From a virus, in IMG/VR virus record IMGVR_UViG_3300044647_001247, positions 32,001 through 96,000 of that record: 64,000 nucleotides of DNA. The stretch is one strand, 5' to 3'. This document shows positions 2,031-58,619 of the stretch, piece after piece (position 1 is the first letter of the stretch; each line of letters opens with the position of its first letter). The notes beneath the pieces are model-generated. The model searched no databases and was not told the origin of the DNA. It was given only the letters and a program-made list of their open reading frames with translations. A program made the translations under genes and the position numbers.

Positions 2031-2035
2031 TAATA

Positions 2036-2626: not shown

Positions 2627-2627
2627 G

Positions 2628-6037: not shown

Positions 6038-6049
6038 AAACAAAATAAT

Positions 6050-37025: not shown

Positions 37026-40000
37026 ATGGAAAACTTCAAAATAAATACAAATTTATATATACCTTCTACACCAAATGTTGAGCAACAGCTGAAAGAAACT
37101 CAAGCTAGTGAAAACTACATTCAATCTGTAATACCTAGTTCTTCTGATATTGCAGCTAGTATATCAATGCCTGGAGATAGTATTGTAGATCTTATTAATC
37201 AGATAGAAAAGTATAATGCTGAGAGTGAAGCTTTACTAGCTCAATCCAACTCTGAAATATCAACTATCGGGTCATACCAATTTGATCAACGAGCTGCCAT
37301 AAATGATATTGCTAAGAAACTAAATCCTAAAGCACCTACATTAAAATCATCTGCTTCAGGTGCTTATTTAGGTACAGTTGGTGAACTAGAACGTTATTCT
37401 AGTTCAGATAATTTTAAAATCTTTGGTTTTAATAGTGCTTTAGGAGAAGAACAAGAATATAAATATGGTCGTGCTATGACCTGGGGTGATACATTAGGTA
37501 AAGCTTTTGCTGGTGGTGGAGCTATTGCTGCTGATACTTTTATAGAAGGATGGAAAGGCTGGGGACGTATGGCTGAAGCTTTATATACATGGGATTCTTC
37601 TAAACTTATGGGTTCCAAAGAAGAACGTTATGAAATTGCTAAACAGCAAGAAGCAATCTTTAATAAGTATGCTATATATAATACAGCTGAATCAGAAGAT
37701 TCTCTTTTAAATAGACAGTTCTTTGGTAACATGTTACAACAAGCTGGTTTTACAATTGGTGCATTTGGTCAAATGATTGTAGAAAACTATTTAACTGCAG
37801 GTATAGGAAAAGCCATTAGTGCATCAGTTGGTATGTTTGCAAAAGCTAAAGGGCTTAGCACAGCTATGAACGTAGGTGAGCTCATCAACGACACCCGTAA
37901 AGCTCAACAGGTTATTTCAAACACACAAAGAGTAAACAACGCTCTTAAGCAGATACCTCGTGCCTTAGTACCATTATTTGGTACAATAGAAGATGCAGTC
38001 AAAGCCGGTAAGGCTGGAGCTGGTACACTTCAGTTGGGTATGATTGGTCTAGGTGGTATCAAAAGAGAGCTTAGTATATTTAACATGGCTCGTTCAGAAG
38101 CCATCTTTGAAGCTGCTTCCACTTATAAAGAGATGGAAGATAAACTACTAAAAGAGTTTATAAATACAAACGGAAGACAACCTACTAATACAGAACTGGA
38201 AAACATCCGTAAAACAGCTGACGACGCTTCGTCTGATAACTTTGCTTCCAACTTGGGCATCCTGACACTGATGAATAGGATACAGTTTGGTAACATGTTC
38301 AAAAACTTTAACACCTCTAAGAAGATCTTTTCTAAGAACGCTGCTGCTTTTGCAGATGATGTATTTGAGGTGAGCGGTAAGGTAGGAGGTAAAATAGTAA
38401 CCAAGGTTTATGAGAAAGGCTTTATAGGAAGACTTGGATCAGTTGGAGATATTGCTAAAACTTTTGGCAAGAAGAAAGCTGCCTGGGAAGCCAGTAAGTC
38501 CATGGGTCTTGGTCTAATGAAGTTTGAAGGATCTGAAGGAGCCCAGGAACTTATACAGGAAGCGTCTAATAAAGGATTGAGTCAGTATCATTATGACCTA
38601 TATCATGGTAAGAAAGGATACGGTAGTAAACTAGACAATGTACTGGAAAGCATTCAAAACCCTATCACAGATATTGATGGGGCCAAAACCTTTTTGATGG
38701 GTGCTCTTACAGGACGTTTCATTGCTCCTGTATCATATGCCGGTGGTAAAATATTTGGTGGTAAACAAGCTCAAGAAATAGCTGCTCAGAAAAGACAGGC
38801 TATTGATGTCATCAACAGTTTCTACAGTGATCCTACACAATACACTAAAGAGTGGATTGCTAACGTGAAGGTTCAGAACAAAGCTGCTGAAACAATGGAA
38901 CAAGCTGTTGCCAACGGTGACAAGTATACATTCTATAATGCTAAAGATTCTGCTTTTGCAAAAGCTATATCATCAGCTATTAAACTTAATATGTATGAAT
39001 CTTTAAAAGACACAATGAATGAGTTGGGTAAAAACTTAAGTGATACAGAGTTTAAAGAAGCTTTTAATATGGATGCTAGTGAAACTAGTCGTCAAGGAGT
39101 ATCAGAGTTTATGAATAATGTTACTCAACAAATGGATGATTATTTTACTTTATATACCAACTTAAAAGATAAATATGGAGACAGGATTGTTCCTGAGCTA
39201 TATCGTTATAATAAACCAGAAGAATATGAGAATGTAAAAATTTCTAAGATTGCATTAGACAATGCTATAGAAATGCTTACTACTAATGTATATAAAGCAA
39301 GACAGTCTACTAAAAGAGCAGTGCAATTGCAACGTGAGATGGCTGCTAATATAAATATAGGAGCTTCTTCTATAGAAGTTTTAAACAAACTAGGAAGTGA
39401 ACAATCTATTAATGATCATGTAGATATCCTTCAAAAAGAAGTTTCTTTTTATGAGAGTGTTGATACATTATCACCTGAGCAAAGAAAAGAATTTAATAGA
39501 AAGAAGCAAGAACTTAAATTAGCTGAGGGTTGGAAAAACGCGTTTGAAGATGTAATGACTGGTCAGGGAGAAAGTTATTTTGATCCTAAGACAATTCGTG
39601 AAATATATGCTGCTTATGAAGAGTTAGTTAACTTTTATAATAAGTCTGAAGAAAAAAATGTTGCAGTTTCTATAGAAGATATAGAAGACAACTTTAGTAA
39701 GTTCTTAGATTATATACAGCTTAATAAAGATAATAAGGCTTATATAGATGCTATGAATATTTTGGCTGATCCTTATAATATAAGCTTGATTATAGAAGCT
39801 ACAAAAAGCTCGCTTAAGGAAATAGGTACACGTAATCAAAAAGAACACATACAAGAAGTGCAGGCCATTACAGAAGATAAGATAGAAGAACCTGCTGAAC
39901 TAATAGAACTTGTAGAAGAAGCTAAGTATCCTGATTTACCATCTATAAACAAACCTGAAGAACCTGCTCCATCTGCTCCTGAGCAATCACTTAATAAAGA

Positions 40001-40337
40001 ACAAAAGGCTGCTTTAGAAAAAGCTTATCAGGAAGCATATGCTAAGTATAAACAAGATGCAGAAGCTGCAGGTAATAGTATTGCTAACTACGGACAATGG
40101 AAAGATTTTAGTGTTGCTGCTAAAGATATACGTAAAAAATTTGATTTAGGTGGTGTTTCTGAAAAAAAAGAACCTGAAACTTACGTAGAGAATTTTGATG
40201 TAGCTACAGTTAACACAGAAAATATTTCCACAGATGTTGTAGATGAGATTTTGAGTTCTAGAGAATCAAAAAAAAGTGATAACTTTGATAGTAATACGGA
40301 TGAATTTTTCACTAACCTTACTGTTTGTAATATCTAA
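37026..40337 (+). CDS. Internal virion (cargo/ejection) protein with Gly/Ala-rich putative membrane-inserting helices
   Basis: FFGNMLQQAGFTIGAFGQMIVE, EGSEGAQELIQ and FLMGALTG segments; single Cys three residues from the C-terminus. Confidence 0.7.
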   Translation: MENFKINTNLYIPSTPNVEQQLKETQASENYIQSVIPSSSDIAASISMPGDSIVDLINQIEKYNAESEALLAQSNSEISTIGSYQFDQRAAINDIAKKLNPKAPTLKSSASGAYLGTVGELERYSSSDNFKIFGFNSALGEEQEYKYGRAMTWGDTLGKAFAGGGAIAADTFIEGWKGWGRMAEALYTWDSSKLMGSKEERYEIAKQQEAIFNKYAIYNTAESEDSLLNRQFFGNMLQQAGFTIGAFGQMIVENYLTAGIGKAISASVGMFAKAKGLSTAMNVGELINDTRKAQQVISNTQRVNNALKQIPRALVPLFGTIEDAVKAGKAGAGTLQLGMIGLGGIKRELSIFNMARSEAIFEAASTYKEMEDKLLKEFINTNGRQPTNTELENIRKTADDASSDNFASNLGILTLMNRIQFGNMFKNFNTSKKIFSKNAAAFADDVFEVSGKVGGKIVTKVYEKGFIGRLGSVGDIAKTFGKKKAAWEASKSMGLGLMKFEGSEGAQELIQEASNKGLSQYHYDLYHGKKGYGSKLDNVLESIQNPITDIDGAKTFLMGALTGRFIAPVSYAGGKIFGGKQAQEIAAQKRQAIDVINSFYSDPTQYTKEWIANVKVQNKAAETMEQAVANGDKYTFYNAKDSAFAKAISSAIKLNMYESLKDTMNELGKNLSDTEFKEAFNMDASETSRQGVSEFMNNVTQQMDDYFTLYTNLKDKYGDRIVPELYRYNKPEEYENVKISKIALDNAIEMLTTNVYKARQSTKRAVQLQREMAANINIGASSIEVLNKLGSEQSINDHVDILQKEVSFYESVDTLSPEQRKEFNRKKQELKLAEGWKNAFEDVMTGQGESYFDPKTIREIYAAYEELVNFYNKSEEKNVAVSIEDIEDNFSKFLDYIQLNKDNKAYIDAMNILADPYNISLIIEATKSSLKEIGTRNQKEHIQEVQAITEDKIEEPAELIELVEEAKYPDLPSINKPEEPAPSAPEQSLNKEQKAALEKAYQEAYAKYKQDAEAAGNSIANYGQWKDFSVAAKDIRKKFDLGGVSEKKEPETYVENFDVATVNTENISTDVVDEILSSRESKKSDNFDSNTDEFFTNLTVCNI

Positions 40338-40345
40338 TATATTCT

Positions 40346-43300
40346 ATGAATAAGTGTAGTATAAGTATACAGATTTTTGCCAATTTTACTAAGCAACTGT
40401 TAGCTCAAGATGCTAAGTATAAAAACTTTGCTGAAGTTGCAACGTTTATTATCAAGCGTCCTGGACAACCTGATAGTGTAAAGATGGTTGCTCTTAAAGG
40501 ACTTGCTAAGATATATGATCAGCTGGCTAAAAAAGACCAGACCTTTAGCTTTTCTGCAGATGACAGCAAAATCATTGATGTAGATTTGGAAAAAGATGAT
40601 TTAGAAACACAGTTTAAAAACATTGCTGCTAACTACCAAGTACGTCCTTCAGCTCCTCTTTCTATAGATACTATCAAGAATGATATAAAAAATCTTTCTT
40701 CTCTTCCAGTTTTGCAATTGCAGGACGCTGTTACTAAAATCGTAAAAGACATAGCTGCTCTTGCCAAAACTAATTTTCGTAAGAGTGCAGACGACATGGT
40801 TAAAATCATTGGTGAGCTTTATGATAGAGCTATTACTGAGCTAGATAAAAATACAGCAGTGAGTCCTATTATTCGGAACTCACTTACACAGCTTCTTAAT
40901 ACCGAAAAGAATATTGCTACAGAAGCTGCCAGTGATTATATTCCTTTAAAGAATACAATATACGGGGATACTAAAATCATAGTCAAGAAAGACGGTGGAA
41001 TATTTGAAGTTTTAAGAGACACTACTGGAAAATATATTGACATTAATTCATCAGATAGTTCAGAAGTAATATTTGATAGATCTGTTGGAGATCAGTTATT
41101 TAATCTTAGAGTGGACAGTTCACCTTTTGTAGGTGGTAACGATGGCACTCAATATATATTTTCTCACAATGAGTTGAGAAATGGTATGACCTTACGTGAT
41201 CGTACCGGGAAAGTTATAACTAACCAATTGCTTAGTTTTGATAATCCACTTTCTGCTCTTGAAGTGGTAGCTTCCCGTACAGAAATACAACGTAACCAAG
41301 ACCGCATTAGTAGAATTCGTTCAGAAATACCTACACGTACTCTTGAAACACAAGAGGTAGTCTCACAACAAAAAGCTTTGCTAGCAGGTAATCCTGTGCT
41401 TAGTGTATTTTCTCCTTTAGAAGGTGCACAAATACAGTTTCGTATTCCAGGGCAGCAAGGAGCTATGATATTATATGGTATAGATAACTATGCTATTATC
41501 TATCCTGATAATCGTACAGTGGCTGTAGACTTTTCTGAGACTCAGAAACAACTTATTTTAAAGCTTGCCCGCAAGAATACTACTAATGAAAATGGAATAA
41601 ATGTAACAGAACCTATTACAGAAGAAGACTTTTATAATCTGAAAGCCAGTTATGAAAAATTTAAAGATTTTAAGAAAGCTGTACAAGAAATCCTTGATCA
41701 AAATAAAAACCAATCTGAAATTATTTTACCACAAGCTTTAGTTACTGCTTATATTAATCTTGCCCGTACTGGTGAAGCTATTGCTGTTGCACCCAGTGCA
41801 GATCAACAAGCTAGTCTAACTACATTGTTAAACAAAGAAGGAGGTCCTGGACAGATTAGTTTTAATGTAGTAGAAGCTTTAGATGATAATTCTTATTCTG
41901 AACCACGTCGTGTTACTAAACCTATTATAGTAGCTAAACAAGGTGGTGTTTGGACATTTATATCAGACCTTAAGGGTAATGAGATGGTTGCTGTTGATCG
42001 TGATGATAGAAAAGAATATATGTCTTTTTCTGATTATATGCAAAATGAACTTAAAATATCTCCAGATATTAACATACAAAAGTTTCCAAGTTCTTTTGCA
42101 TGGCTTTATCAGAAACCTAATGGTAAATTACAACCTATTGCTCTTAAGTATATACCAGTAGAAAATAGTGCAGATATTGCACGACTTGCTATGGGGTTTG
42201 GTCAGTTACTAAAAAAAATGAGTGATCCTCAAACAGAAGGACCAAAAGAACTCAGAAACTTTAACTTGAACGTCTTTGGTTTTTCTCCCTATAATCCAAC
42301 AGGTGCTACAAGTTTTGCAGGTGACTTTGACGTATTTAAAGATCCAAGTGGTGAACGCAGTGTGTCTATTCAGATTCGTCCTATGACTATGAACTGGAGC
42401 CAAGTACCTCGGGATGTAAGAAAGGCTTTAACTGTATATATAGATGTTCCTGTTATGACTGCTTTTTTAAAAGTGGTACGTATAGCTGCAGAAATACCTG
42501 CATTTAAATCACAGAAAAATGACCTTAATACAGCGGCTGGTAAAAATGCTTTGGTAAAATTTATAGATGAAGATCCCCAGCTTCGTAAACAACTTATGAG
42601 TGCTTATGAAGATATTAATACACACCTCTATCGTAAGTTTCAGTCTATAGGTGAAAAACTTACTAAGACTTCTTATAATGGCGAGTTTGATATACCTAAG
42701 ATTTACACACTGATGGAAAATGAAAAAAGTGATCTTAGTGGAAGATGGAAGCTTAAAATAAAAGATCGTCAAACTGGTAATGATGTAACTAACTTTAACA
42801 ACTATCGTAGCATGACTACGGAAGAAGTGTTTACATTTGGTGGTATTCAGGCTGTGTTTGCAGGACCAAACGTTTCTGCTATACAGACAGTTAATAAACC
42901 AGCTCCAGTAACACAAAATCCTGCTAACAACACTACAGCAGATAATGTTCCTGGTACTGCTGGAACTATAGAGATAGATCTTAATTTTGAAGATGGTGCT
43001 TTTGAACTTGCTATGGATACTGAACTTTTCCAAGCATATCAAGCAGGGCAGTTTCAGCAAGAACTAGATTGGATTAAAGCAAATCTACCAAAAGAAATCA
43101 GCGTAGAAGACCTAGCTGATATTATGGATAATCTTAAAGCTGAAGGTCGTGTACTTGGTTATTTTAGAGACCGAGTTATCTATCTCAATGAACAGCTTTC
43201 TGGTAGAGGATCAGGATATCATGAAGCATTCCATGGTGTGTTTAGAAAACTAATGGATGCTTCTACTCGTGATCGTTACTTAAAACTTACCAAAGAAAAA

Positions 43301-46300
43301 ATAGGAGCTGTTTCTAAAGAGCAGATTCAAGAATTCCGTCAAAGACGTTCTCTTTATCATTTATCTAATGCTCAGGTTATAGATCGTATAGCAGAAGAAT
43401 ATTTAGCTGATAAATTTAAAGCATATAAGTTAGAAGGTCGTGGTGCTCAGGAAGGTTGGCTAAATAAGCTAATGAACTTAATAGATAGTATCATTCGTTT
43501 TTTTAACAAAAATTATAAAGAAATAGATAACCTGTTTCAAAGAATTGATACAGGATTCTATAAGAATGCAAAGATTGTAGGTGAGTTTAAGGAAGGTGCG
43601 TTTGAAATGCTATCTACCCGTAGTACACTAGTAACAGGTCCTACAGGAAAAGCTATACAAAGAAAGAACTTTCTTAATAAAATTGACCAAGCACAGTTGA
43701 TAAATAGACTAGCTGAACTAACTTCTTTTTCAGTAGGTAAAAACTTTGAAGAAAAGTTTGCAGGAGCTCGTAAAGAGCTAATAGCAGAAATGAACATAGA
43801 TAACCTAATTGCTCAAAATCCTTCTGAAGAATTAGCTATTCGTACACGTTATGAATCCATTCTTCAGGATAAACTTTATACTCTAGGTGTACCTGTATCT
43901 ATGATTAATGAAACAGGTAATGTTACTATGGATCAGAACTTAAATTTAATACAAAAGGATCCTGTACAGCTAGCAGCTTATAATAAGCAGCAAGCTGATA
44001 CATTAAAGTCTTTAAAGCAACAAGTTAGTCAAAAGATAAACAACATTTCTATATCAAACATATACTTTGATCCCGACGCTATGCTGAATGAAGAAGAGTT
44101 TGATGAAGATGATCTAGGTGATGAAACAAATTATGAAGATAGCTTTGTAAACATAAATACTTTGGACGGCTTGAGCCGTCAGTTTCGTTCATTTTTTGGT
44201 CTAATTTCTTATATTCATACAGACGATCTGGGAGTACAAACCACCCGTATGGTAGATGGAGCTACAGTTTTTGATACCATGATGAAAATCTTAGCTGACA
44301 CACCTGTAGAAAAGATGATGTCTCGTATGGAAGAAACTCTAGAAAAAATGCTAGAGTCTGATAACATGGTAGCATATGATCGTCTTAATGCAGTGTGGGA
44401 TAAGATGAAAAAATACTTTGGTCTTAATGAAAATAATCAACCTACACGTAATACAAATCTTTATAATCAGTTTATTGATGTATTTAATGTAGCAGATCTA
44501 TCTACAGATGTATACTATGTAAACACTCGTAATGATTCTTCTAGTCTTAGAGTTATTGATGCCACTATACAAAATGATATTAATCAGTATTATGAAAAGT
44601 TAAGAAGAAAGTATGAGAATGGTTTTATGAAAAAGTCTACCAAAGATCGTGAAGATATTCTTCGTGTATCCAAAGCTATTCTTAAAACTGAAGTGACTGT
44701 ACCAACAGACCTTGGTAGTCAAAGTTATAATTCAATAAAAGCTAAAGCAAAAAAAGTACACAAGGCTCTTAATGATATAGGTATTATATTACCTCTGCAT
44801 ACCGTTATTTACTCTTTAATTGCAATTGATGTAAAAGAAAATAAAGTAGAGTTAAAACCTAAAAGTAAATCTTTAAAGCAATACATATTAGATCAAGAAC
44901 TTATTAATACAGGAGCTTATCTTGATAAAGATTTTTTTGATAAAATTGTTAGATATGTAGATGAAAATACAAATATTTTTGATAAGTCTGTAGATAAAGA
45001 TGTTGCTACAGAAGGAACTCTTGGTCTTACTGACTTAGAAAAGAATCAGCTTCGTTTAAAGAAAAGAGGACTGGGTTTAATTAATTCTGTACTAAAAAAG
45101 ACAGGACGTTATGTTGTTAAGTATGATCTTGATACTGTAGTGTCTGTATTTCGTAATGCAGAAGGTAAAAATGTTTATCGTTATGTACGTAAAAGTCCAC
45201 CATTATTAATAGCACAGTCATTGAGAGAAAAAGGATGGCAAGATACTTATTCTGATTTTTCAACTGTTGCTAAGTTCTTACAAGACAACCCACTTACAGC
45301 TAATAAGCCTGAAAATTTGCTCTACTTACAAAACATTGAGCTTAGAAGTTTTGGTGGAGCTCGTCAAACACTTAAAGGTGTAGAACGAGATGGTGTTACA
45401 GCTAAGACTATTGATACAGCAGGTTACTATCTAAGCTATGTCCTGATGTCTATGAACCGTAAAACAACTATAAATAATAACGCTGCTATTACAACTTTTT
45501 CTAGGATGCTTACTCAAAATGAAGCTTCTAATACTATATATATGATACCAAATCTATATAAAAGAATGGTAACAAATAATGGATATATAGTTGAAAATAA
45601 AGAAAATATAGTGGTTAAAGGTTTTGTAGACGTTATCAAACAAGAATACCAGCGTATACAAAGAGAATGGACTACACGTAAAGATCAGAATAAAGAAAAA
45701 TTTAATAATTATAATGCTGTTTTAAATCCTGATGGATCTGTAAACACAGAAGATCCATCTTTGCGTGCGTACAACTTTAATATGCTTGCTGATTTTTTTG
45801 AGTTTAATAATCTTGCATCTAAAACATCTAATCCACTACGTGCTGATATCCGCAATCAACTTATACAAAGTGCAAAAGATGGAATAAAGTTTGATAAGCT
45901 TGATATTGGTTTACTGCAGCGTGAACTTCTTAATTATGCAGAAGAAAAGTTTACTGCTCATTTAAACATACTAAAGTCTTACAAACTAGTTGAAGAAAAT
46001 GAACAGACTAGTGAACTTATGAGCCGTCTTATTCCTGATAGTTACACCGTTGATGGTACAACTGTAAGTATTGAATCAGAGGATTCTAATCTAGAGTCTT
46101 ATCTAAAAGATGTCTATTTTAACGTATTTATAAACAACTTGCAGGTGTCACAGTTTTTTGATGGTGATATAGCAATGGGTGTTAAAAACTTTGCTGACTA
46201 CTTTAAGCGTCAGAAAATGAACGTTGCTGCTGGACCTTCTATGAAGAGTGGTAATCATACTGTAGCATATGTAGATGAAATTACTGTTCTTATTAATGAT

Positions 46301-49300
46301 AACAATCTTGAAGAAGGGCAGTATGACGAGAATGATGAAATGCCTGAAGGATTTATAAATCGTTCACAAAAAGTCAAAAGTTTTGATGGTCAGTCTGTTA
46401 CAACAATAGAACATCGTATTGAACAATATCGTAAACAGGGAAGACTTGTTGATAATGCAGAAGAGCAAAAATCTGTAGAAGAGATTCTTAAAGCTAGCCG
46501 TTACAGTAAACTTACTGAAGAAGAAGTAGACTTCTTGAGAAGTAACAAGGTAGTGCTTGGACCAAAGAAAACAGTAACGGGTGCTTTAGTATACTATCAT
46601 AAACAAGCAGAACACGTTTTGTTTCGTACAGATAGTTCTTATATGGTTGTACCAGATGGAATGACGCGTGCTCAGGTTGAAAAAAGACTAGCAGAATTAT
46701 ATAATCAAACTGACATTCTCCGGTCCAAGCTTCGTAATGCAGATACATATGATATCACAGCAGAGGGAGGTGTGCAATTTATAGAAGATCAGCTTCGTGA
46801 TGTTTACTCTCAAATCCATAGATATTGGGAACCATTACCAAATCGTGCTGCTCATCACTATATGCTTAATTCTATGGAATTTAATGATATTGACCAGCTT
46901 ATGGATCTCACTTCTTCTAAAAAAGCTACATTACTTCCTACAAAAGTTAACAGTGGTGCTATTACTGATCTCAGTAAATCTAAACTTTTAGTACCAAATA
47001 TTTATAAGTTTGATCAGGTAGAAACTTCTAAAGTTTCTACAGATATTAGTTCTACTACACAGCTTCAACATCTGATAGATACAGATATTAATCTTGATGA
47101 TAAAGAAGTTGACTCTAATTTAAAAGATGCTATTCTGCAATATCGTAAGTTAACTGGTAGACTATCTCAAGTAGGTCTTGACAGACTAAATAACATCATT
47201 AAAGATGAAAATGGTAATGTAGAAGTACGTGAGATTATCCGTAGTATGAGAGATGGTCTTGAAACTCAGGGAGCTGATAGTAACACTTTAAAGTTCTTTG
47301 AGATAAGAGATGATCAGCCTGTACACAACATTAATCTTCCTTTGTTGAAGAAGATGTTTACTTATTACTACTTTGCTTTTTATTCTAATAATGTATTTAG
47401 TAAACGTCAAAGTGGTAGAAAAGATTATATAGTTACTAGCTGGGGATATAAACTTATTGAAAATCGTACTACTGGTGAAGTTATTAAAAGTGATGAGATT
47501 GCAAAAAATCCACAAAAGTATAATGACACTTCTAAATATAAGCTTCGCTACCCTGGTGTAAAGTATGATAAAGTTAACAACCGTTACATTGTAGAAGTTA
47601 TGGTTCCTCGTCCGTATTTTAAGAACCAGGAAGAGATTGAACTTTTTGAACGTAAACTTAGTGAGTTTTTATCTACACGTATTCCAACAGAAGATAAACG
47701 TTCTATGATTGTAGCTAAAGTTGTAGATTTTATTGATGGAGCTTACCAAAATACTATTGTTATACCACAGCTTATTCACGTACTTTCAGGTTCTGACCTT
47801 GACATTGACTCTTTATATTCTCATACGTTTGCTACTTATGAAGACTTTAACGGTAAGCAAAAAGTATATGGTGAGGCAAACACTCCTAAAGAACAGTTTG
47901 TAGAATATTTACAAAGTATGATGCAAGATGAAACACTAGCCTCACTTATAAAAGTAGAATTAGATAAAGTGTATAAAGAAAAAATCACTGATGTTCCTGA
48001 ATCTTTACAAGATTTAGCAGAAGATTTAAATTTACCTTTTTACAATTACACTAAAGAACAGTGGATGGCTGCTTTAGATGAACTCAGAATACAACGTAAC
48101 AATATATATGAGCAGGTGCAGTCTACAAAAGAAAAGCGTAAGCAGACTCAAGAGATTTATGAAAAAGTAAAAGCTGAAAATGAACAAATGGTTCAGCAAA
48201 TTACTGATAGTCTCAAAGCTTTTTTAAAAGAGCAAGACATAAAAACTACTCCAGATAAATTTGCTGAATTACTTTGGGAACAGACAGCTATAATGAAATC
48301 TAATTTCCGTGAGCAGGGTGATCTTCGTGTTTCTTTAGAAAAAATGAATAGCCGTATTAAAGATAGTTATGAAAATATAGCTACAGCTAATAAAAGAATT
48401 ACTAATTCATCTAATGAATTACAACGTATTAGTAGATTGATGAAAGTTTTAGCCACTTTGAACATACTTGCTCGAAAAAATATGCCTATTACAGCAAAAC
48501 AGTATGCTAAAGAAGTTTCTAAAAAAGGATCACTTGTTCCTGAAACATTGCAAAATGATCTACTTCAGGTCAAGATAGATATACTTAGTAATCCTTATAC
48601 ATTTAAAAAATTATATATACAAGAACGTTCTGATATATCTAGGTTTGAAAATATAGCAGTGGCTATGAAAAAAAGTATTAAAGATGTTATTAATAAAAAT
48701 AATATTTTTTCACCAGATGGTATCATTGGATCTCGTGATATGGTTAAAAGTTCTGGTGCAGGTATTGGTATAGCAGCTAACGTTAATAAGTTTGCAGCTT
48801 TTGCTTCTAAGAAAGGCTTGAAGCTAAGTAATCCTATATGGAATGTTAACGGTAAAAACTATTCAGACTTTACAGCTGATAGTGAAAACCGGCCGATATC
48901 AGACATTGGTAATGCATTAGGTATGCAGGCAGATGCTAAAAGTAATCCTATTCCTGCTGTACTTAATCTTAATGAAGTTAGTTTACCTATCACACTAGTT
49001 ATGATTGCACAAAAGCTTCCTTTAGAGATGGCTATTACAATCAATTCTGTACCACTTATATATAAAGTGATACAACGTGTTATGGAAGAAAAACGTGAAA
49101 TACGTACAATAGCAGATTTGTTTAACAAACGTAGTCTTACAAGCATTGCTCGTGATGAGATGAGTGAGGCCATTGAAAAACTTAAAGAAGATGGTTTGCA
49201 GGCAGAGCTTTTTGAAGTAGATGATGAACAAAACATTATCTATGATATGGCTGGTAATCCTAAATTTAAAACTGATTTGTTTTTAGATTATGACTTTAAT

Positions 49301-51850
49301 TATACTCCCACAGATAGATCTTCCGCTGAAGACTTTGGTTTTAAACTTAACAACAAACTGGGTATTCCATTGTCAGATGATTCTACACAAGTTTATTTGC
49401 TGCATAAATATATTCAGACAAGTAATCTAAACAATGATGTATTTGCTTTAGGTTCTATCTTAAACTTGTATAAAAAACTTAAACCAAGTTGGAAGTCTGT
49501 AGACCGGACATTAAAGAATTATGCTTATCTAACTGGTGTACTTACAGAGAAGAGTCAGTTTGCTAATATTGAGGAGATTCTAAAAAACTCTCCAGAGTTT
49601 AAACCTTTAATACAAGGTTTAAAAGAACTTTCTGAAAATGCTGAAGTTATTCTTATAGAGCGTCATCCTGTAATGAAAGCTATTGATGATACTATTAAAG
49701 GAGGTTTACAAGCATTTAATTTAGATGAACAAGTAGAACAAAGAATCACGGATCAAATTACTAAATACTTTATTATTAACAAGTTTCGTCAGCAAACAGA
49801 AACAGAGCTTAATGAAGAATTACTTAAACCTACTCCTAATCTTCTTGTTGTACAGTCACTTAAAACTGCTCTTGAAATGTTTAATGCTGATTTTTGGAAA
49901 GGAGAACCTACAAATGCAGATGTTACTTCTATAGAGCAGGACTTTCAATATCTTAAAGATAATCATGAGGGTAATCCTTTTGTAGACTATTTAAAAGAGC
50001 GTACACGTCAAGGAATAAGTTTTATTGAAGCTCTTAGTAGAATGAAACTTGAAAAGGAGTATGCAGAAAATGTTAATGATGGATTTTTACTATTGCAGAA
50101 TTCACCTGATACTCGTAGTAAACTTATAGCTCGTAAACTATTTCACTATACACTTGTAAAAGATGGACTAGGGTATGGTTCAAATACTTTTATCAATTAT
50201 ATAAACCCGCAGGATCCACAAACATTTGAGAAAATATCCAAGTATTTGAATGAGTTTCAAACAACTTTGGTTGAGTTTAACAAGAAGAATCGTGTTCTTA
50301 TACAAAAAGGTAAAGCAGAAAGTTATTACAAAAAGTTCAATGATTTGCTTAATGACTTCTTTGGTAAGAAAGCTGATTTGAATGTATACATGAGTTCTAT
50401 CATTAACCGTATAGGACTTTACGCTGGCAACAATGACATTATGGTTAAGAGTCGTATGGCACTTATCAAAAGTAAGAAAAGCCGATTTGCAGGTATAGAG
50501 CCTGCGTTGATAATGGAAGAGATGAAATACTTACTTCCTGATACACATGCTCTCACTCCTAAAGATGTTTATACAGAGCTGGAAGAGAATCCAGAGAATA
50601 TTGAGTTTTGGTTGCCTACTTCTAAAGAAACTGGTATAGGTAAACTTGTAATAGATACCGCTAAAACCTATTCTAATATTTCTAATATTATTCTTTCTCA
50701 AATGAATGTTCGCCAGGGTGCACAATTTAATGGCGATGATGGTAAAACTCAGACTTATGTGTTTCCACTGTTTGTAAAGAATAACTTTGGTCAAATACTA
50801 CGTTTAACAGAAGTGGATGGTGCACGCCTTAGTGAGAAAGTTATTAACAATCTTACTTCAAAACTTCAGGGAAAATCTTATAATGACAGTGTATCTGGTG
50901 TTCGTGCTACTTATATAGTGGCTGAACAAGAAGGTACTGATAGTATTCTTAATCTTGGATTTAGTGAGCAAGAAGCTCGTGAACTTTACAAGTTTGCACA
51001 GGAAGATAACGACAATCAATTTTTGGATATAAGTATTACTGCTAAATTTGATCAAGTACTTCAAAAACTACGTAATGTTTATAAGGTAGAGCCCAAACGT
51101 CTTAATTTATTAGCTCGTATTGTTAAGAGTGAAGTGATGAATAGTGCTGCCATTACATTTGAAAAGCAAAAGAATAATTTGTTTTATATTGACTACACAG
51201 TAGATACAAAAGATCGTGGTCCTGTACAACGTAAACTTTATCTTCGTCCAAGTGTTACTGATCCTTTAAGTATTACTATAGAAATGAGGGAACGTGAAAT
51301 AGTAACTGGAATAGAAACTTTGGTACAGCTTGAAGATAATATGCGTGAGTTTCCTGCAGTAGAGATTGAATTTGTAAAACGTGGTAAGCAATTCCGTGGA
51401 CCTAGGGTTACAAAGCCAGCTAATCCTATCACTAAAGAAATGGTAGCTGAAGTGGTAAAAAATTATCAAGTTCCACAAGATAGAAAGCTTAAAACAAAAT
51501 TAACATTTACTATATTTGCAGATACTCAGTGGAATCTTCTAAAAGAAAATCTTAATCTAGATAAACTTGTTCAGATATTTAATGATGTACATACTATTTC
51601 AGTAAATCAACAAGCTCCTATACAAGAATCTTCTAGTGCTTTTTCTTCATTTACTATTCCAGCTGGTTTTGTATTACGTCCTAATGCTCCTGATATAAAA
51701 GCTTATATTTCTCAAATGCGTAAAGTTAGTGATAAGAGTGAAACTGAGCTTATAGAAATGTATAAGAAGATTAATCTTATTGCTACTTCTACTAGAGATA
51801 TAAATGATGTAAGAAAGGATAAAGATTCTGGTGATTGTATTATTTTATAA
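40346..51850 (+). CDS. Virion-packaged single-chain two-barrel RNA polymerase with zincin-like domain (crAss-like, phi14:2 gp66 type)
   Basis: 3834 aa; catalytic SGSDLDID (DLDID at 47795-47809) preceded by TRIPT; DYFKR and FDGQ motifs; HEAFH at 43220-43234. Confidence 0.88.
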   Translation: MNKCSISIQIFANFTKQLLAQDAKYKNFAEVATFIIKRPGQPDSVKMVALKGLAKIYDQLAKKDQTFSFSADDSKIIDVDLEKDDLETQFKNIAANYQVRPSAPLSIDTIKNDIKNLSSLPVLQLQDAVTKIVKDIAALAKTNFRKSADDMVKIIGELYDRAITELDKNTAVSPIIRNSLTQLLNTEKNIATEAASDYIPLKNTIYGDTKIIVKKDGGIFEVLRDTTGKYIDINSSDSSEVIFDRSVGDQLFNLRVDSSPFVGGNDGTQYIFSHNELRNGMTLRDRTGKVITNQLLSFDNPLSALEVVASRTEIQRNQDRISRIRSEIPTRTLETQEVVSQQKALLAGNPVLSVFSPLEGAQIQFRIPGQQGAMILYGIDNYAIIYPDNRTVAVDFSETQKQLILKLARKNTTNENGINVTEPITEEDFYNLKASYEKFKDFKKAVQEILDQNKNQSEIILPQALVTAYINLARTGEAIAVAPSADQQASLTTLLNKEGGPGQISFNVVEALDDNSYSEPRRVTKPIIVAKQGGVWTFISDLKGNEMVAVDRDDRKEYMSFSDYMQNELKISPDINIQKFPSSFAWLYQKPNGKLQPIALKYIPVENSADIARLAMGFGQLLKKMSDPQTEGPKELRNFNLNVFGFSPYNPTGATSFAGDFDVFKDPSGERSVSIQIRPMTMNWSQVPRDVRKALTVYIDVPVMTAFLKVVRIAAEIPAFKSQKNDLNTAAGKNALVKFIDEDPQLRKQLMSAYEDINTHLYRKFQSIGEKLTKTSYNGEFDIPKIYTLMENEKSDLSGRWKLKIKDRQTGNDVTNFNNYRSMTTEEVFTFGGIQAVFAGPNVSAIQTVNKPAPVTQNPANNTTADNVPGTAGTIEIDLNFEDGAFELAMDTELFQAYQAGQFQQELDWIKANLPKEISVEDLADIMDNLKAEGRVLGYFRDRVIYLNEQLSGRGSGYHEAFHGVFRKLMDASTRDRYLKLTKEKIGAVSKEQIQEFRQRRSLYHLSNAQVIDRIAEEYLADKFKAYKLEGRGAQEGWLNKLMNLIDSIIRFFNKNYKEIDNLFQRIDTGFYKNAKIVGEFKEGAFEMLSTRSTLVTGPTGKAIQRKNFLNKIDQAQLINRLAELTSFSVGKNFEEKFAGARKELIAEMNIDNLIAQNPSEELAIRTRYESILQDKLYTLGVPVSMINETGNVTMDQNLNLIQKDPVQLAAYNKQQADTLKSLKQQVSQKINNISISNIYFDPDAMLNEEEFDEDDLGDETNYEDSFVNINTLDGLSRQFRSFFGLISYIHTDDLGVQTTRMVDGATVFDTMMKILADTPVEKMMSRMEETLEKMLESDNMVAYDRLNAVWDKMKKYFGLNENNQPTRNTNLYNQFIDVFNVADLSTDVYYVNTRNDSSSLRVIDATIQNDINQYYEKLRRKYENGFMKKSTKDREDILRVSKAILKTEVTVPTDLGSQSYNSIKAKAKKVHKALNDIGIILPLHTVIYSLIAIDVKENKVELKPKSKSLKQYILDQELINTGAYLDKDFFDKIVRYVDENTNIFDKSVDKDVATEGTLGLTDLEKNQLRLKKRGLGLINSVLKKTGRYVVKYDLDTVVSVFRNAEGKNVYRYVRKSPPLLIAQSLREKGWQDTYSDFSTVAKFLQDNPLTANKPENLLYLQNIELRSFGGARQTLKGVERDGVTAKTIDTAGYYLSYVLMSMNRKTTINNNAAITTFSRMLTQNEASNTIYMIPNLYKRMVTNNGYIVENKENIVVKGFVDVIKQEYQRIQREWTTRKDQNKEKFNNYNAVLNPDGSVNTEDPSLRAYNFNMLADFFEFNNLASKTSNPLRADIRNQLIQSAKDGIKFDKLDIGLLQRELLNYAEEKFTAHLNILKSYKLVEENEQTSELMSRLIPDSYTVDGTTVSIESEDSNLESYLKDVYFNVFINNLQVSQFFDGDIAMGVKNFADYFKRQKMNVAAGPSMKSGNHTVAYVDEITVLINDNNLEEGQYDENDEMPEGFINRSQKVKSFDGQSVTTIEHRIEQYRKQGRLVDNAEEQKSVEEILKASRYSKLTEEEVDFLRSNKVVLGPKKTVTGALVYYHKQAEHVLFRTDSSYMVVPDGMTRAQVEKRLAELYNQTDILRSKLRNADTYDITAEGGVQFIEDQLRDVYSQIHRYWEPLPNRAAHHYMLNSMEFNDIDQLMDLTSSKKATLLPTKVNSGAITDLSKSKLLVPNIYKFDQVETSKVSTDISSTTQLQHLIDTDINLDDKEVDSNLKDAILQYRKLTGRLSQVGLDRLNNIIKDENGNVEVREIIRSMRDGLETQGADSNTLKFFEIRDDQPVHNINLPLLKKMFTYYYFAFYSNNVFSKRQSGRKDYIVTSWGYKLIENRTTGEVIKSDEIAKNPQKYNDTSKYKLRYPGVKYDKVNNRYIVEVMVPRPYFKNQEEIELFERKLSEFLSTRIPTEDKRSMIVAKVVDFIDGAYQNTIVIPQLIHVLSGSDLDIDSLYSHTFATYEDFNGKQKVYGEANTPKEQFVEYLQSMMQDETLASLIKVELDKVYKEKITDVPESLQDLAEDLNLPFYNYTKEQWMAALDELRIQRNNIYEQVQSTKEKRKQTQEIYEKVKAENEQMVQQITDSLKAFLKEQDIKTTPDKFAELLWEQTAIMKSNFREQGDLRVSLEKMNSRIKDSYENIATANKRITNSSNELQRISRLMKVLATLNILARKNMPITAKQYAKEVSKKGSLVPETLQNDLLQVKIDILSNPYTFKKLYIQERSDISRFENIAVAMKKSIKDVINKNNIFSPDGIIGSRDMVKSSGAGIGIAANVNKFAAFASKKGLKLSNPIWNVNGKNYSDFTADSENRPISDIGNALGMQADAKSNPIPAVLNLNEVSLPITLVMIAQKLPLEMAITINSVPLIYKVIQRVMEEKREIRTIADLFNKRSLTSIARDEMSEAIEKLKEDGLQAELFEVDDEQNIIYDMAGNPKFKTDLFLDYDFNYTPTDRSSAEDFGFKLNNKLGIPLSDDSTQVYLLHKYIQTSNLNNDVFALGSILNLYKKLKPSWKSVDRTLKNYAYLTGVLTEKSQFANIEEILKNSPEFKPLIQGLKELSENAEVILIERHPVMKAIDDTIKGGLQAFNLDEQVEQRITDQITKYFIINKFRQQTETELNEELLKPTPNLLVVQSLKTALEMFNADFWKGEPTNADVTSIEQDFQYLKDNHEGNPFVDYLKERTRQGISFIEALSRMKLEKEYAENVNDGFLLLQNSPDTRSKLIARKLFHYTLVKDGLGYGSNTFINYINPQDPQTFEKISKYLNEFQTTLVEFNKKNRVLIQKGKAESYYKKFNDLLNDFFGKKADLNVYMSSIINRIGLYAGNNDIMVKSRMALIKSKKSRFAGIEPALIMEEMKYLLPDTHALTPKDVYTELEENPENIEFWLPTSKETGIGKLVIDTAKTYSNISNIILSQMNVRQGAQFNGDDGKTQTYVFPLFVKNNFGQILRLTEVDGARLSEKVINNLTSKLQGKSYNDSVSGVRATYIVAEQEGTDSILNLGFSEQEARELYKFAQEDNDNQFLDISITAKFDQVLQKLRNVYKVEPKRLNLLARIVKSEVMNSAAITFEKQKNNLFYIDYTVDTKDRGPVQRKLYLRPSVTDPLSITIEMREREIVTGIETLVQLEDNMREFPAVEIEFVKRGKQFRGPRVTKPANPITKEMVAEVVKNYQVPQDRKLKTKLTFTIFADTQWNLLKENLNLDKLVQIFNDVHTISVNQQAPIQESSSAFSSFTIPAGFVLRPNAPDIKAYISQMRKVSDKSETELIEMYKKINLIATSTRDINDVRKDKDSGDCIIL

Positions 51851-51867
51851 ACCTACCAAATATTAAT

Positions 51868-54800
51868 ATGCCCTGTCAAGTATTTAGAAATTCCAAACGT
51901 GAAATTGTTAAAGTGGTTGCACCTAATGGACAACCTTCCAAGTTATATAAAGACATTCTTGCTCGTCCTGAAATTGAGGGTAATAAAGAAGCTGCTCTTG
52001 ATGTATGGTTGTCTGCCTATACAGACGACTTTAAAAAGAAGTATGGTGACTGGGAGAATACTACAACGTCTACTACTGTTAATCAGTCATCCATAGTGGT
52101 AGATCAAAACGGAGAACCTTTAGCAAAGTATGTACTTCCTAATGCAACTTATAATCTTTCTGAAATTGCTGAGCAATTTAATTATCAGCAATCTGAGCTT
52201 CAAAGAAACTTTATGTTTACTTCAGGTTTAACTTTAATGAGTCGTGACAAGGCCCAGAGAATAGTAGACTGGGTCGCTAAGAATAATAAGTATAACTCTA
52301 TTGAAGTGAATATTCGTGGTGTCAATGACGGTTCTAAAATTATGTATACTGTAAACATATCTGAAAAACCTTTAAAACAACTTTATGAGCTGCAGTCTCA
52401 ACAGTTGATTGAGCTTCAAAAATTTCAGATAAATCAAGTAATTAATAGATTAGCTATTAAGTTTCCAAAGCTGCAGACTAAATGGATTACAGCTGAAGAT
52501 CTTATGCAGCAAGATCATCCTGTAGATGTATCTACTATACGTGGTTTTGTACGTGACGGTATAATATATCTTGTAGAAGGTAGAGCTACTGAGTCTATTG
52601 CTATAGAAGAAATTTTACATCCTTTTATTGAATCACTTTTTCAAGATAATCGTGCTTTATTTACAGGATTATTTAACAAAGGAAAAGAGCGTTACCCGGA
52701 GTTATGGAAAAAGATCCAAGGAGCATATCTTGAAAGTCGTAGTTTTATTGAGGTTGATCGTAAAAAAGAACTAGTTACTCGTGTACTTCAGCAAGTATTA
52801 CAGGAAGATATAAGTAATCCTGAGAAATCTTTTCAGGAACTAAAATCTCTTTTACAAAGATTCTTTAATTGGCTTAGTGAATTAATGCAGGAGGTTTTTG
52901 ATATCCGTACGGATGGCAATATTATGATACAGGCTTACAACCTTCCTACTAAGATTAGTTACGAAGAGCTGTCTGATATCATTAACACTAAAAATGTACA
53001 GCTTTCTACAGCTGTTGCAGATGCCAACTCTTATAACACAGACGGTGAAATGGACAACCAGGAATTAAACAATTCCAAGGACCGTAAACTTGCCCGTGTT
53101 GAAGAGCAAATGGACATCGTGCGTAGTGTAATTACAGACCTGAAAAAGGCTAAAGGAACTGACGCTAAGATTGCCACACTTGAAAAAGTGTTGATCAACC
53201 TTAATAAGTATCGTCAGATTATACAAAATGATGAATACACTGTATCAGTTACCAATCTTACTGGTGGTGGCCAGATAGATAACCAGGAGACTTATAATGA
53301 CTTTAAAGAGTTTGGAACATTTATTCACTTTGTGCTGGAGAATGTACAGAAGATGAGTGTTGAATCTAATAAAAAAGTGACTACTATTCTTACTCGTGAA
53401 ATGTTTGACATGCTGGCTGATAACTATCCTGGTGAATTTAATATTGTAAACCTGGACAGAGATCAGATGTATGATATGAGCCAGGAGATGATTAGCTATT
53501 TGCAATACTATATTACTAGTGGGTACACGCTTCTTCCTGAAATATCAGTAGTTGGTAAGGATCGTAACGACCGTAACGTAGTAGGACGTGTGGACATCAT
53601 GGCCATAGCCCCTAGTGGTGCTATAGAAATTGTGGACCTGAAAACCAAGAAAGTGTACACTAATGCACAAATCGGTTTAATGTTTAATAAACCATATCCT
53701 GTTGCTACAACTGAGCAAACAGATACTGCATTTTCTAATACCAGGAGATCTGTATATGACAGTTGGGACACTCAGCTTGGTATATATGAAAGACTATATG
53801 CACAAGAAGGAATTCCGGTAGGTCGTAAAAGTGTACTGGTTTTAGTATACCGTGGTGACATGGTAGACGTTACAGATATTAATACTCCTGGTCAATTTCA
53901 GTTTGAATACTCAGGATATGAATTTTTAAACTACAGCTCAGATCAACGTCAGAATGGAACTGATCTTGAAAAGCTTAACTATGCAAACACTGATCGTAAA
54001 GTTAAACGTGTTATTCCTGTAGCAGGAGAAGTTTTAGAAGATACAAAGACTTCTAAAGAGCCTATTATCTTTAACCTTAAAGATGAAGATTACAAACGTC
54101 TTTTAGCTAACCTGGAATCTATTGCTGCAGAAGAAATTAAAAAGATTGAAAAGTCTTTATCTGAACTGGATGAAAACAATGAGAACGATAAAAAGCTCAG
54201 GGATTATTATAAAGCACGCCGTGAGTCTATTCGTAAAATACAAGATAGTTTTAAGAAAGAAACTTGGGAACCTGCGTATAAGCTCACTGCTATTATGCAG
54301 TTTATGAGTGACAACACTGCTGCTATGAAGCAGACAGCACAGGACATTGCTAACATTAAAGATCCTGTAGAAAAAGCCCGTAAGCTGGACGACCTGAAGA
54401 ACAAGGCTGTAGCCTTTAACTATTTTCTTTCAGACATCCGTGAGTTGTTGATCAATCTTAATGATGAGCGTAATGATAAAGCTATCAACCTTCTTGATAA
54501 TATCCAATCTAATATTGATTACACTATAGGTATATTTAATGAGCTTGGTTTTAATTATCTAGTTGATATACTTAAAGATTCTATGAGTCCTGAGACTTTG
54601 CAAAAACTTAATGCGGAAAGATTTGAGAGTATAGATCCACTAATTACTCATCTTAAAAAGAAATTAGAAAAGCTTAAAAACCAAAAAGATCAAGGAGGTA
54701 CTGGTACCACTATATCTTATTCTATTTGGCAGGGTCTATCTAATATCGCCCGCAGTATTGCAAAGGTGCCTATTGATACCAAAAATGAAATAGAGGCTTT

Positions 54801-58417: not shown

Positions 58418-58450
58418 AAAAAAAGGGGGGGTTAACTATTCCCTTTTTTA
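58418..58450. terminator. Bidirectional terminator between convergent modules
   Basis: AAAAAAAGGGGGGGTTAACTATTCCCTTTTTT, an A-tract/hairpin/T-tract at the strand switch. Confidence 0.75.
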
Positions 58451-58617
58451 TTTAATATTGTTATACTAAATAACAATATTCCTATACCAACTTCTATGTC
58501 TACACCATCATAATATTTTTCTGTAGATGTTTCAAACGTTTGAATAACATTAACATTAATACCAATAAGTATTTGGTATTTAGGTAGAAATTTTAAACGG
58601 ATATCCTGTATTCCCAT
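58432..58617 (-). CDS. Small hypothetical protein, hydrophobic C-terminus
   Basis: 61 aa, tightly packed after the cREC gene. Confidence 0.55.
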   Translation of the reverse strand: MGIQDIRLKFLPKYQILIGINVNVIQTFETSTEKYYDGVDIEVGIGILLFSITILNKKGNS

Positions 58618-58619
58618 AT

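What the first reader, a model, noticed from the sequence alone, without database searches (positions are those of the whole stretch)
40326..51876. Only four cysteines in about 10,000 aa of cargo, all at facing termini: a possible disulfide-linked ejection chain
Seen (manual scan of the translations): the 981-, 1045- and 1000-aa cargo proteins have no Cys. The 1103-aa protein has one, third from its C-terminus (TVCNI, 40326). The 3834-aa vRNAP has two, at residue 4 (MNKC, 40355) and fourth from the end (GDCIIL, 51836). The 2182-aa protein has one, at residue 3 (MPC, 51874). The outer ends of the trio lack Cys. Known: N4 virion RNAP is Cys-free, consistent with transit through an oxidising periplasm. 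Inference: C-to-N disulfides join membrane-channel protein, vRNAP and nuclease protein in gene order into one chain of about 7100 aa. The chain would be threaded through the tail in sequence and unlinked by cytoplasmic reduction, acting as a redox-cleavable alternative to gene fusion. I do not know of a description but cannot check the literature.
Basis: partly seen in the sequence, partly recalled or inferred. Interest (0 to 1): 0.9.

Follow-up and report, generated by a model that had tools for sequence, protein, structure and literature searches.

The report
Terminal cysteines chain crAss cargo proteins
Three giant proteins of this crAss-like phage, with its particle-borne RNA polymerase in the middle, have no cysteine except one at each end that faces the next protein; about 250 relatives keep this pattern wherever the genes are cut and lack it where they are fused, which points to still untested end-to-end disulfide links.

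Summary
Six consecutive ORFs (27866-58416, 10,145 codons) hold four Cys codons, at 40326, 40355, 51836 and 51874. At the window's background rate about 124 would be expected.

The four Cys sit at the two junctions 1103 aa | 3834 aa | 2182 aa.
- The C-terminal Cys of the 1103-aa family is in 39/46 homologues; the other seven come mostly from short contigs and look like fragments.
- Cys 3-6 of the 2182-aa family is in 28/28.
- A Cys in the last 15 residues of the polymerase family is in 178/182.
- Flanking sequence is not conserved.

The cut between the first two proteins lies at different places in different lineages, and the Cys pair sits at the cut each time. It is absent where the genes are fused. 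PhiCrAss001 (gp47/gp50/gp49, on convergent strands), phi14:2, DAC15 and p-crAssphage follow the same pattern.

Cyanophage A4 has the same sequence signature, and cryo-EM shows a gp27 Cys1715-gp26 Cys5 disulfide there.

The best reading is end-to-end disulfides forming a thread of about 7,100 aa. The bond itself, the ejection order and release by reduction are untested. The 'membrane channel' label is unsupported.

This scan has already noted the same pattern on other DNA (98 notes, at least 89 genomes). I found no paper describing it for crassviruses.

The parts
27866..30811 (+). 981-aa Cys-free protein at the start of the cargo block
   Evidence: 0 Cys. No Pfam or PHROG hit.
30816..33953 (+). 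1045-aa Cys-free protein with a phage lysozyme domain (residues 245-367, window 31548-31916)
   Evidence: 0 Cys. PF00959 E 8.7e-17. phrog_7 endolysin.
34010..37012 (+). 1000-aa Cys-free protein
   Evidence: 0 Cys. Homologues in nearly all related loci also have 0 Cys.
37026..40337 (+). Chain protein 1 (1103 aa), called the 'GW domain' here after its EGWKGW motif at residue 174
   Evidence: 46 homologues. C1101 is an invariant column. The domain is fused to the polymerase in other lineages.
40326..40328 (+). TGT codon of Cys1101, third residue from the C-terminus of protein 1
   Evidence: 39 of 46 homologues have their one Cys in the last 15 residues.
40346..51850 (+). Chain protein 2 (3834 aa): zincin-like HExxH module plus two-barrel RNA polymerase, the probable virion RNAP
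   Evidence: tblastn to crAssphage RNAP catalytic subunits. BLASTP to PhiCrAss001 gp47 C-terminal part and gp50. C4 and C3831 invariant in 26 sequences of 23-82% identity.
40355..40357 (+). TGT codon of Cys4 of protein 2
43220..43243 (+). HEAFHGVF motif (HExxH, residues 959-966 of protein 2)
   Evidence: H959, E960 and H963 invariant. The region matches PhiCrAss001 gp47 residues 2100-2294, E 1.6e-9. Used as a landmark.
47789..47809 (+). GSDLDID catalytic motif (residues 2482-2488 of protein 2)
   Evidence: D2484, D2486 and D2488 invariant. Aligns with the catalytic region of gp50 and with the DFDID motif of phi14:2 g066 (10.1101/2020.03.07.982082).
51836..51838 (+). TGT codon of Cys3831, fourth residue from the C-terminus of protein 2
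   Evidence: 178 of 182 family members of 2000 aa or more have a Cys in the last 15 residues.
51868..58416 (+). Chain protein 3 (2182 aa), homologue of PhiCrAss001 gp49 and phi14:2 g065, with a PD-(D/E)XK domain (residues 477-597, window 53296-53658)
   Evidence: PF12705 at 23.3 bits against a cut-off of 22. BLASTP to gp49 and g065. 28 homologues.
51874..51876 (+). TGT codon of Cys3 of protein 3
   Evidence: 28 of 28 homologues have a Cys at residue 3-6. It is one of only nine invariant columns.

Best explanation
The three proteins form the RNA-polymerase cargo set of a distant crAss-like phage: GW-domain protein, HExxH plus RNA polymerase, and a nuclease-domain protein. They correspond to PhiCrAss001 gp47/gp50/gp49.

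Selection has removed every cysteine except one within a few residues of each terminus that faces the next protein. The most likely reason is that these cysteines form two inter-protein disulfides: protein 1 Cys1101 to protein 2 Cys4, and protein 2 Cys3831 to protein 3 Cys3.

The disulfides would tie the set into one nearly linear thread of 7,119 residues. Because each link lies at most 15 residues from a chain end (here at most 4), the thread has no loops or branches. It could still pass a narrow tail channel partly unfolded. The absence of other cysteines prevents wrong cross-links.

What is shown and what is inferred:
- Shown here: the pattern, its conservation, its pairing by junction, and its complementarity with gene fusion.
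- Shown elsewhere: one bond of this kind, in phage A4.
- Inferred: that the bond exists in crass virions, that the thread is ejected in gene order, and that host reductants later free the parts.
For: 1. Extreme depletion and placement in the window.

2. Conservation against divergent flanks:
- Protein 1 family: 39/46 have their one Cys in the last 15 residues; the other seven come mostly from short contigs and look like fragments. Only 2 internal Cys occur in 66,036 residues.
- Protein 3 family: 28/28 have Cys at residue 3-6.
- Polymerase family: 178/182 have a C-terminal Cys and 96 have an N-terminal Cys. Internal Cys frequency is 0.019% over 739,865 residues.

3. The pair follows the cut. 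Landmarks GW, HExxH and DxDxD are colinear. The window is cut before HExxH. PhiCrAss001, p-crAssphage and G005 are cut after it. Each has the Cys pair at its own cut and none at the other site.

4. Fusions lack the pair:
- 26 IMG/VR loci have one ORF of more than 1,100-4,300 aa running on from the GW domain; most have no Cys in the stretch read, and none has a Cys where the split forms carry the pair.
- The 4,400-5,000-aa polymerases lack the N-terminal Cys and carry a GW domain (BLASTP; hhalign 97.8%).
- p-crAssphage gp44 is a protein 2-protein 3 fusion and lacks the C-terminal Cys.

5. Each fusion removes exactly the two Cys that face each other.

6. In PhiCrAss001 and DAC15, protein 1 is encoded on the opposite strand, yet the pattern holds. 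So it is not a by-product of gene junction DNA. Intergenic gaps vary from -1 to 58 nt, and both TGT and TGC occur.

7. A4 gp27 has its sole Cys at -3 and gp26 its sole Cys at 5. Cryo-EM shows that disulfide in the virion (PMC12002296).

8. PhiCrAss001 virions contain disulfides in the tail and portal vertex. They carry gp47, gp49 and gp50 as cargo that must partly unfold to leave (PMC10172136).
Against: - No physical evidence exists for any crassvirus.
- Virions assemble in a reducing cytoplasm, and many crassviruses live in the anoxic gut. The bonds would have to form after release or be templated by the fold.
- No sulfhydryl oxidase or thioredoxin was found in the 84%-complete genome.
- The split/fusion pattern rests on few independent evolutionary events. 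The N-terminal Cys state changes only about 9 times on a 145-row tree, and the independent-pair test had no power.
- A few terminal Cys have no visible partner: p-crAssphage gp47 at -2, and the 1236-aa protein of G004 at -1.
- A few family members lack a terminal Cys: P0181, P0202, P0216, P0260.
Confidence: 0.68

Rival explanations
1. The facing cysteines hold the termini together through a bridging metal ion or some other thiol chemistry, not a disulfide.
For: Sequence alone cannot tell a disulfide from a metal bridge. Pairing, conservation and loss on fusion fit any two-thiol clasp. A reducing cytoplasm would favour a metal site during assembly.
Against: Only one Cys is available per terminus. 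No conserved His, Asp or second Cys lies beside it (tails and heads listed). The one solved example with this signature is a disulfide (PMC12002296).
Confidence: 0.1
2. The terminal cysteines bond to something other than the neighbouring cargo protein. Candidates are copies of the same protein (homodimers), the two ends of the polymerase to each other, or portal, tail or capsid proteins that anchor the cargo.
For: PhiCrAss001 structural proteins use many disulfides. Some terminal Cys have no partner in the next gene (p-crAssphage gp47, G004 1236-aa protein).
Against: Every fusion removes exactly the two Cys that face each other and leaves the other pair intact. With other partners, each fusion would leave orphan Cys. 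The outer ends of the set never carry a Cys.
Confidence: 0.12
3. The links exist but serve assembly rather than ejection. They would guarantee 1:1:1 co-packaging of the three proteins. Ejection order and reductive release would play no part.
For: In A4 the bond stabilises a packed pre-ejectosome ring. Nothing here bears on the ejection step.
Against: This does not explain why the Cys must lie within a few residues of the chain end, or why all other Cys are purged. Both fit passage of a linked thread through a channel. Cys suppression is tied to ejected proteins in Schitoviridae.
Confidence: 0.25
4. The pattern has no function. It arises by chance, by nucleotide constraints at gene ends, or as a relic of how the genes were split.
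For: The Cys codons lie near start and stop signals in an AT-rich genome where TGT is a likely codon.
Against: - Chance probability is about 5e-10 in the window alone.
- Conservation exceeds 95% in families down to 22% identity while the flanks vary.
- The pattern holds across convergent genes in PhiCrAss001 and DAC15.
- Spacing to the next gene varies.
Confidence: 0.01

Closest known systems
RNA-polymerase cargo set of cultured crassviruses: PhiCrAss001 gp47-gp50-gp49, Cellulophaga phage phi14:2 g067-g066-g065 (g066 = vRNAP, PDB 6VR4), DAC15 gp078-gp076-gp077
   Same: Homologous modules in the same order: HExxH region, DxDxD polymerase core and the third protein (BLASTP; motifs). The terminal-Cys pattern is the same. 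The proteins are found in virions by mass spectrometry (record notes).
   Different: - Only 21-35% identity in short stretches.
- The first cut lies before the HExxH module instead of after it.
- The proteins are larger (7,119 aa in all, against 5,400-6,100).
- Neither of the two papers I searched for the words cysteine and disulfide (the PhiCrAss001 virion structure and the phi14:2 polymerase preprint) mentions the terminal cysteines, and four library searches found no other paper that does.
- g067 and g065 have no solved structure.
Cyanopodophage A4 (Anabaena phage A-4L) pre-ejectosome proteins gp27 and gp26
   Same: Consecutive ejection proteins. The upstream one has its only Cys third from the C-terminus. 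The downstream one has its only Cys at residue 5. Cryo-EM shows the Cys1715-Cys5 disulfide in the virion (PMC12002296).
   Different: - No detectable sequence similarity.
- A T7-like podophage with a pentameric internal core.
- One link, not a three-protein series.
- No polymerase.
- The paper treats the bond as a structural detail and gives no comparative pattern.
Cys-free ejection proteins of Schitoviridae (N4 gp50 vRNAP, DEV gp71-gp73)
   Same: A giant virion RNA polymerase is ejected into the host. Cysteine is suppressed across the ejection operon. This is explained by passage through the periplasm (PMC11445570).
   Different: - One polypeptide of about 3,500 aa with no Cys at all, so no links.
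- Described as a structurally distinct polymerase (PMC13434306).
- The crass set looks like the same plan cut into pieces and re-joined. The fused 4,400-5,000-aa forms come closest to it.

Membership tests
Crassvirales RNA-polymerase cargo set (gp47/gp50/gp49 type) | Middle protein carries the two-barrel RNAP catalytic DxDxD motif | tested here: met
   GSDLDID at residues 2482-2488. The three Asp are invariant in 26 sequences. tblastn and BLASTP hit crAssphage gp44 and PhiCrAss001 gp50 catalytic regions.
Crassvirales RNA-polymerase cargo set (gp47/gp50/gp49 type) | Homologues of the flanking RNAP-associated proteins in the same order | tested here: met
   Protein 2 residues 904-1076 match gp47 residues 2100-2294 (E 1.6e-9). 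Protein 3 residues 1721-2086 match gp49 (E 5.9e-6) and phi14:2 g065 (E 4.2e-5).
Crassvirales RNA-polymerase cargo set (gp47/gp50/gp49 type) | Proteins are packed in the virion and delivered to the host | not testable with these tools
   The phage is uncultured (IMG/VR record). Packaging is shown only for PhiCrAss001 and phi14:2.
Disulfide-linked consecutive ejection proteins (A4 gp27-gp26 type) | Only Cys of the upstream protein lies next to its C-terminus; only Cys of the downstream protein lies next to its N-terminus | tested here: met
   Window. A-4L gp27 at -3 and gp26 at 5.
Disulfide-linked consecutive ejection proteins (A4 gp27-gp26 type) | Sequence homology to gp27 or gp26 | tested here: not met
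   No BLASTP hit at E 1e-3. The resemblance is in mechanism, not in family.
Disulfide-linked consecutive ejection proteins (A4 gp27-gp26 type) | The inter-protein disulfide is physically present in the virion | not testable with these tools
   This needs gels, mass spectrometry or cryo-EM.
Cys-suppressed ejection proteins of Schitoviridae (N4 gp50 type) | Near-total lack of cysteine in the ejected proteins | tested here: met
   4 Cys in 10,145 residues. Internal frequency is 0.019% in the polymerase family.
Cys-suppressed ejection proteins of Schitoviridae (N4 gp50 type) | One polypeptide carrying the N-terminal, polymerase and C-terminal domains | tested here: not met
   Three ORFs here. Partial fusions exist in relatives.

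The most novel reading that the evidence does not exclude
Terminal cysteine pairs act as a general post-translational substitute for gene fusion in ejected phage proteins. A giant ejection polyprotein can be cut at almost any domain boundary, provided each cut is capped by a Cys at the end of one piece and at residue 3-5 of the next. The pieces are re-joined in the particle and injected as one thread led by the GW-domain protein. Host reductants then separate them, which may also switch the polymerase on. The same device would have arisen independently in crassviruses and in A4-like cyanophages.
Probability: 0.35. Interest if true: 0.9.

Novelty: new variant of a known kind. Interest (0 to 1): 0.8.

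Why it matters
Crassviruses are the most abundant phages of the human gut. How they deliver about 6,000-7,000 residues of polymerase-associated cargo is an open question. A 2026 paper on N4 still calls the relationship of the three crass RNAP-associated proteins to the N4 vRNAP domains unresolved (PMC13434306).

A conserved, junction-specific cysteine pattern gives a concrete and cheap hypothesis. The three proteins would be one covalent thread, equivalent to the single N4 polypeptide.

It can be tested at once in cultured phages (PhiCrAss001, DAC15, phi14:2) with non-reducing gels, cross-link mass spectrometry and point mutants.

It would also explain why these genes can be split and fused so freely. 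It offers a sequence signature for finding ejected proteins in uncultured phages.

Tried and rejected
Gene contexts came from IMG/VR loci and genome handles instead.
I did not resend those rows.
- The run with the window's own protein 1 tail (180 aa) and protein 2 head (480 aa), without alignments, gave no verdict (score 0.02). It counts neither for nor against.
- PHROGs, Pfam and PDB gave nothing for the 1103-aa and 3834-aa proteins.
- Local HMMs of the protein 1 tail and protein 2 head found no counterpart in the linker of fused proteins. So I cannot say the fusion point is residue-exact.
- A search for a phage sulfhydryl oxidase (PF04777) or thioredoxin (PF00085) in the genome found none. 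The PF04777 control was silent everywhere, so that search is uninformative.
- A hydropathy scan found no clear transmembrane segment in the 1103-aa protein.
- The tree-based independent-pairs test had too few informative pairs.

Readings I considered and dropped:
- Lipoprotein Cys: there is no signal peptide or lipobox before residue 3-5.
- CaaX prenylation of CIIL: homologues end in CL, CK, C or CIAEL.
- Split-intein or native-ligation chemistry: the Cys is not the first residue, and no intein domains are present.
- Nucleotide constraint at gene ends: see the fourth rival explanation.
Full report
WHAT IS THERE

The window is bases 32001-96000 of a 109.8-kb IMG/VR virus record, 84% complete. 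Genes run on the + strand up to 58.4 kb. They include tail-fibre-like and virion structural proteins, followed by a block of giant ORFs.

- Cys1101 of 1103, tail TVCNI.
- Cys4 of 3834, head MNKC, and Cys3831 of 3834, tail GDCIIL.
- Cys3 of 2182, head MPC.

The other frames of the same DNA hold 154 and 612 TGY triplets. The other ORFs of the window average 1.23% Cys, so about 124 would be expected. The chance that four random Cys all lie within four residues of an end is about 5e-10.

IDENTITY OF THE PROTEINS

The 3834-aa protein has no Pfam, PHROG or PDB hit. Its residues 2155-2500 do match the RNAP catalytic subunits of crAssphage and relatives.

In an alignment of 26 homologues of 23-82% identity, the invariant columns include:
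- GSDxDxD at 2482-2488;
- an HExxH motif at 959-963;
- Cys4 and Cys3831.

BLASTP gives these matches:
- residues 904-1076 match the C-terminal part of PhiCrAss001 gp47;
- residues 2438-2525 match gp50;
- the 2182-aa protein matches gp49 and phi14:2 g065.

The 2182-aa protein also has a PD-(D/E)XK domain just above the Pfam threshold.

The 1103-aa protein has no family hit and no clear transmembrane segment. I call it the GW domain after a conserved EGWKGW motif. So the trio is a distant version of the crassvirus RNA-polymerase cargo set.

CONSERVATION

Protein 1 family (46 proteins, 27-100% identity):
- 39 have exactly one terminal Cys in the last 15 residues.
- The seven without come mostly from short contigs and look like fragments.
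- Only two internal Cys occur in 66,036 residues.

Protein 3 family (28 proteins, down to 22% identity):
- All have a Cys at residue 3-6.
- It is one of nine invariant columns.

Polymerase family (two searches pooled, 182 proteins of 2000 aa or more, 739,865 residues):
- 178 have a Cys in the last 15 residues, mostly at -1 or -2.
- 96 have one at residue 2-6, mostly residue 3.
- Internal Cys run at 0.019%.

The residues around the Cys differ widely. Tails include CNI, CIIL, KCL, CK and a bare C. Heads include MNKCSISI, MxCQVFRN and MxCPNKNxxEW.

PAIRING BY JUNCTION

In a 71-89% identical genome, all four Cys are kept.

In five more distant, mostly complete genomes (G001-G005), the series have very different sizes: 1774|3719|1169, 2901|3081|2224, 2871|2403|2236, 1930|2829|1273 and 2969|3065|2285. 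Each has a Cys at -1 to -15 of protein 1, at residue 3-4 and at -1 or -2 of protein 2, and at residue 3-4 of protein 3.

Among 37 IMG/VR loci found through the GW domain, all nine in which the GW-containing ORF ends inside the locus show the pair at that end.

THE PAIR MOVES WITH THE CUT AND VANISHES ON FUSION

The landmarks GW, HExxH and DxDxD are colinear in all forms. Four architectures occur:
- The window is cut between GW and HExxH.
- PhiCrAss001, p-crAssphage and G005 are cut between HExxH and DxDxD.
- In 26 IMG/VR loci the ORF that starts with the GW domain runs on for more than 1,100 to 4,300 residues. Most have no Cys in the stretch read; a few have one to four scattered ones, none where the split forms carry the pair.
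- The 4,400-5,000-aa polymerases lack the N-terminal Cys. They carry a GW domain at their start, detected directly by BLASTP in seven and by hhalign at 97.8% probability for the rest.

p-crAssphage gp44 is a fusion of proteins 2 and 3. It has Cys3 but no C-terminal Cys, while gp45 upstream keeps its Cys at -2.

Each fusion therefore removes the two cysteines that face each other and no others. This favours tail-to-next-head pairing over other pairings.

The number of independent architecture changes is small. My tree tests had no power. The argument therefore rests on a few events that all follow the pattern, plus strong purifying selection within each clade.

NOT A DNA-LEVEL EFFECT

In PhiCrAss001 and DAC15 the first protein is on the strand opposite to the other two, yet the pattern holds:
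- PhiCrAss001: gp47 -3; gp50 5 and -9; gp49 5.
- DAC15: gp078 -3; gp076 5 and -1; gp077 4.

In phi14:2 the pattern is g067 -1, g066 3 and -2, g065 3. Intergenic gaps range from -1 to 58 nt, and both Cys codons are used.

LITERATURE

- Cys suppression in ejected proteins of N4-like phages is known and is ascribed to periplasmic passage (PMC11445570).
- PhiCrAss001 virions contain disulfides in the tail and portal vertex. They carry gp45, 46, 47, 49 and 50 as cargo that must partly unfold. The text does not contain the word cysteine, and its disulfides are all in the tail and portal vertex, not the cargo (PMC10172136).
- The phi14:2 vRNAP preprint does not mention cysteines.
- Searches for crassvirus plus cysteine or disulfide found nothing further.
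I checked the paper (PMC12002296): cryo-EM shows a disulfide between gp27 Cys1715 and gp26 Cys5. I also checked the genome: gp27, 1717 aa, has its only Cys at -3; gp26, 1114 aa, has its only Cys at 5. These proteins are not detectably related to the window's.

MECHANISM

I commit to end-to-end disulfides joining the three proteins into a nearly linear thread (confidence about 0.68).

The requirement that each Cys lie next to a chain end, and that no other Cys exist, fits a thread that must pass a channel without loops.

Three parts of the model are inferred:
- formation after release from the reducing cell;
- ejection in gene order with the GW protein first, by analogy with the N-to-C ejection proposed for gp45;
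- reductive separation in the host.

The rivals are a metal clasp, other partners, and a role in packaging only. Chance is excluded.

STANDING

This scan has noted the pattern many times on other genomes (98 notes in at least 89 genomes). I found no published description for crassviruses. It is a new variant of a known kind: Cys-suppressed ejection proteins, plus the single A4 bond.

Noticed in passing
window 43220-43243: An invariant HExxH (zincin-like) motif sits inside the polymerase protein. In PhiCrAss001 and p-crAssphage the homologous module belongs to the upstream protein. A protease in the ejected chain could process the cargo, which would be an alternative to release by reduction.
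   Followed up: partly
window 30816-33953 (domain 31548-31916): The Cys-free 1045-aa cargo-block protein carries a phage lysozyme domain (PF00959). It is probably an ejected cell-wall hydrolase.
   Followed up: partly
L055 4754-7327 (p-crAssphage gp47); G004 block 2-3712: Two terminal Cys have no partner in the next gene. p-crAssphage gp47 (857 aa) has its only Cys at -2, and gp46 after it has none. The 1236-aa protein of G004 and L036 ends in ..KVEFC. These may be links to another partner, or incidental.
   Followed up: no
P0216, P0260, P0181, P0202: Four giant polymerase relatives lack a Cys in the last 15 residues. P0216 and P0260 (about 4,800 aa) have a single internal Cys (at -2112 and at 1094). 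They may be fusions with the third protein that kept one junction Cys, or they may be truncated calls.
   Followed up: no
window 15416-16642 and 17216-17869: Two Cys-rich ORFs lie just upstream of the Cys-free block: 408 aa with 20 Cys, and 217 aa with 8 Cys in the first 42 residues. The 408-aa ORF has no PHROG hit; the 217-aa ORF was not searched against any family library. The contrast in Cys content within one module is striking.
   Followed up: no
window 2628-5288: An 886-aa tail-fibre or minor-tail-like protein (PHROG hits) has its only Cys seven residues from the C-terminus. It is not part of the cargo chain.
   Followed up: partly
heads of downstream proteins, e.g. window 40346-40375 and 51868-51900; G001-G005: N-terminal heads fall into two motif classes. 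One is M-x-C-P-N-x-x-x-x-E/K-W. The other is a strand-like M-x(1-2)-C-[STQKL]-[IVL]-x-[IVL]. The CPN class occurs at the first junction in some genomes and at the second in others, as if the head were a portable module. Tail types seem to co-vary with head types, but the sample is small.
   Followed up: partly
window about 58420-58620: Strand switch after the third chain protein. Genes from 58620 onward are on the - strand, and GC and AT skew change sign.
   Followed up: no
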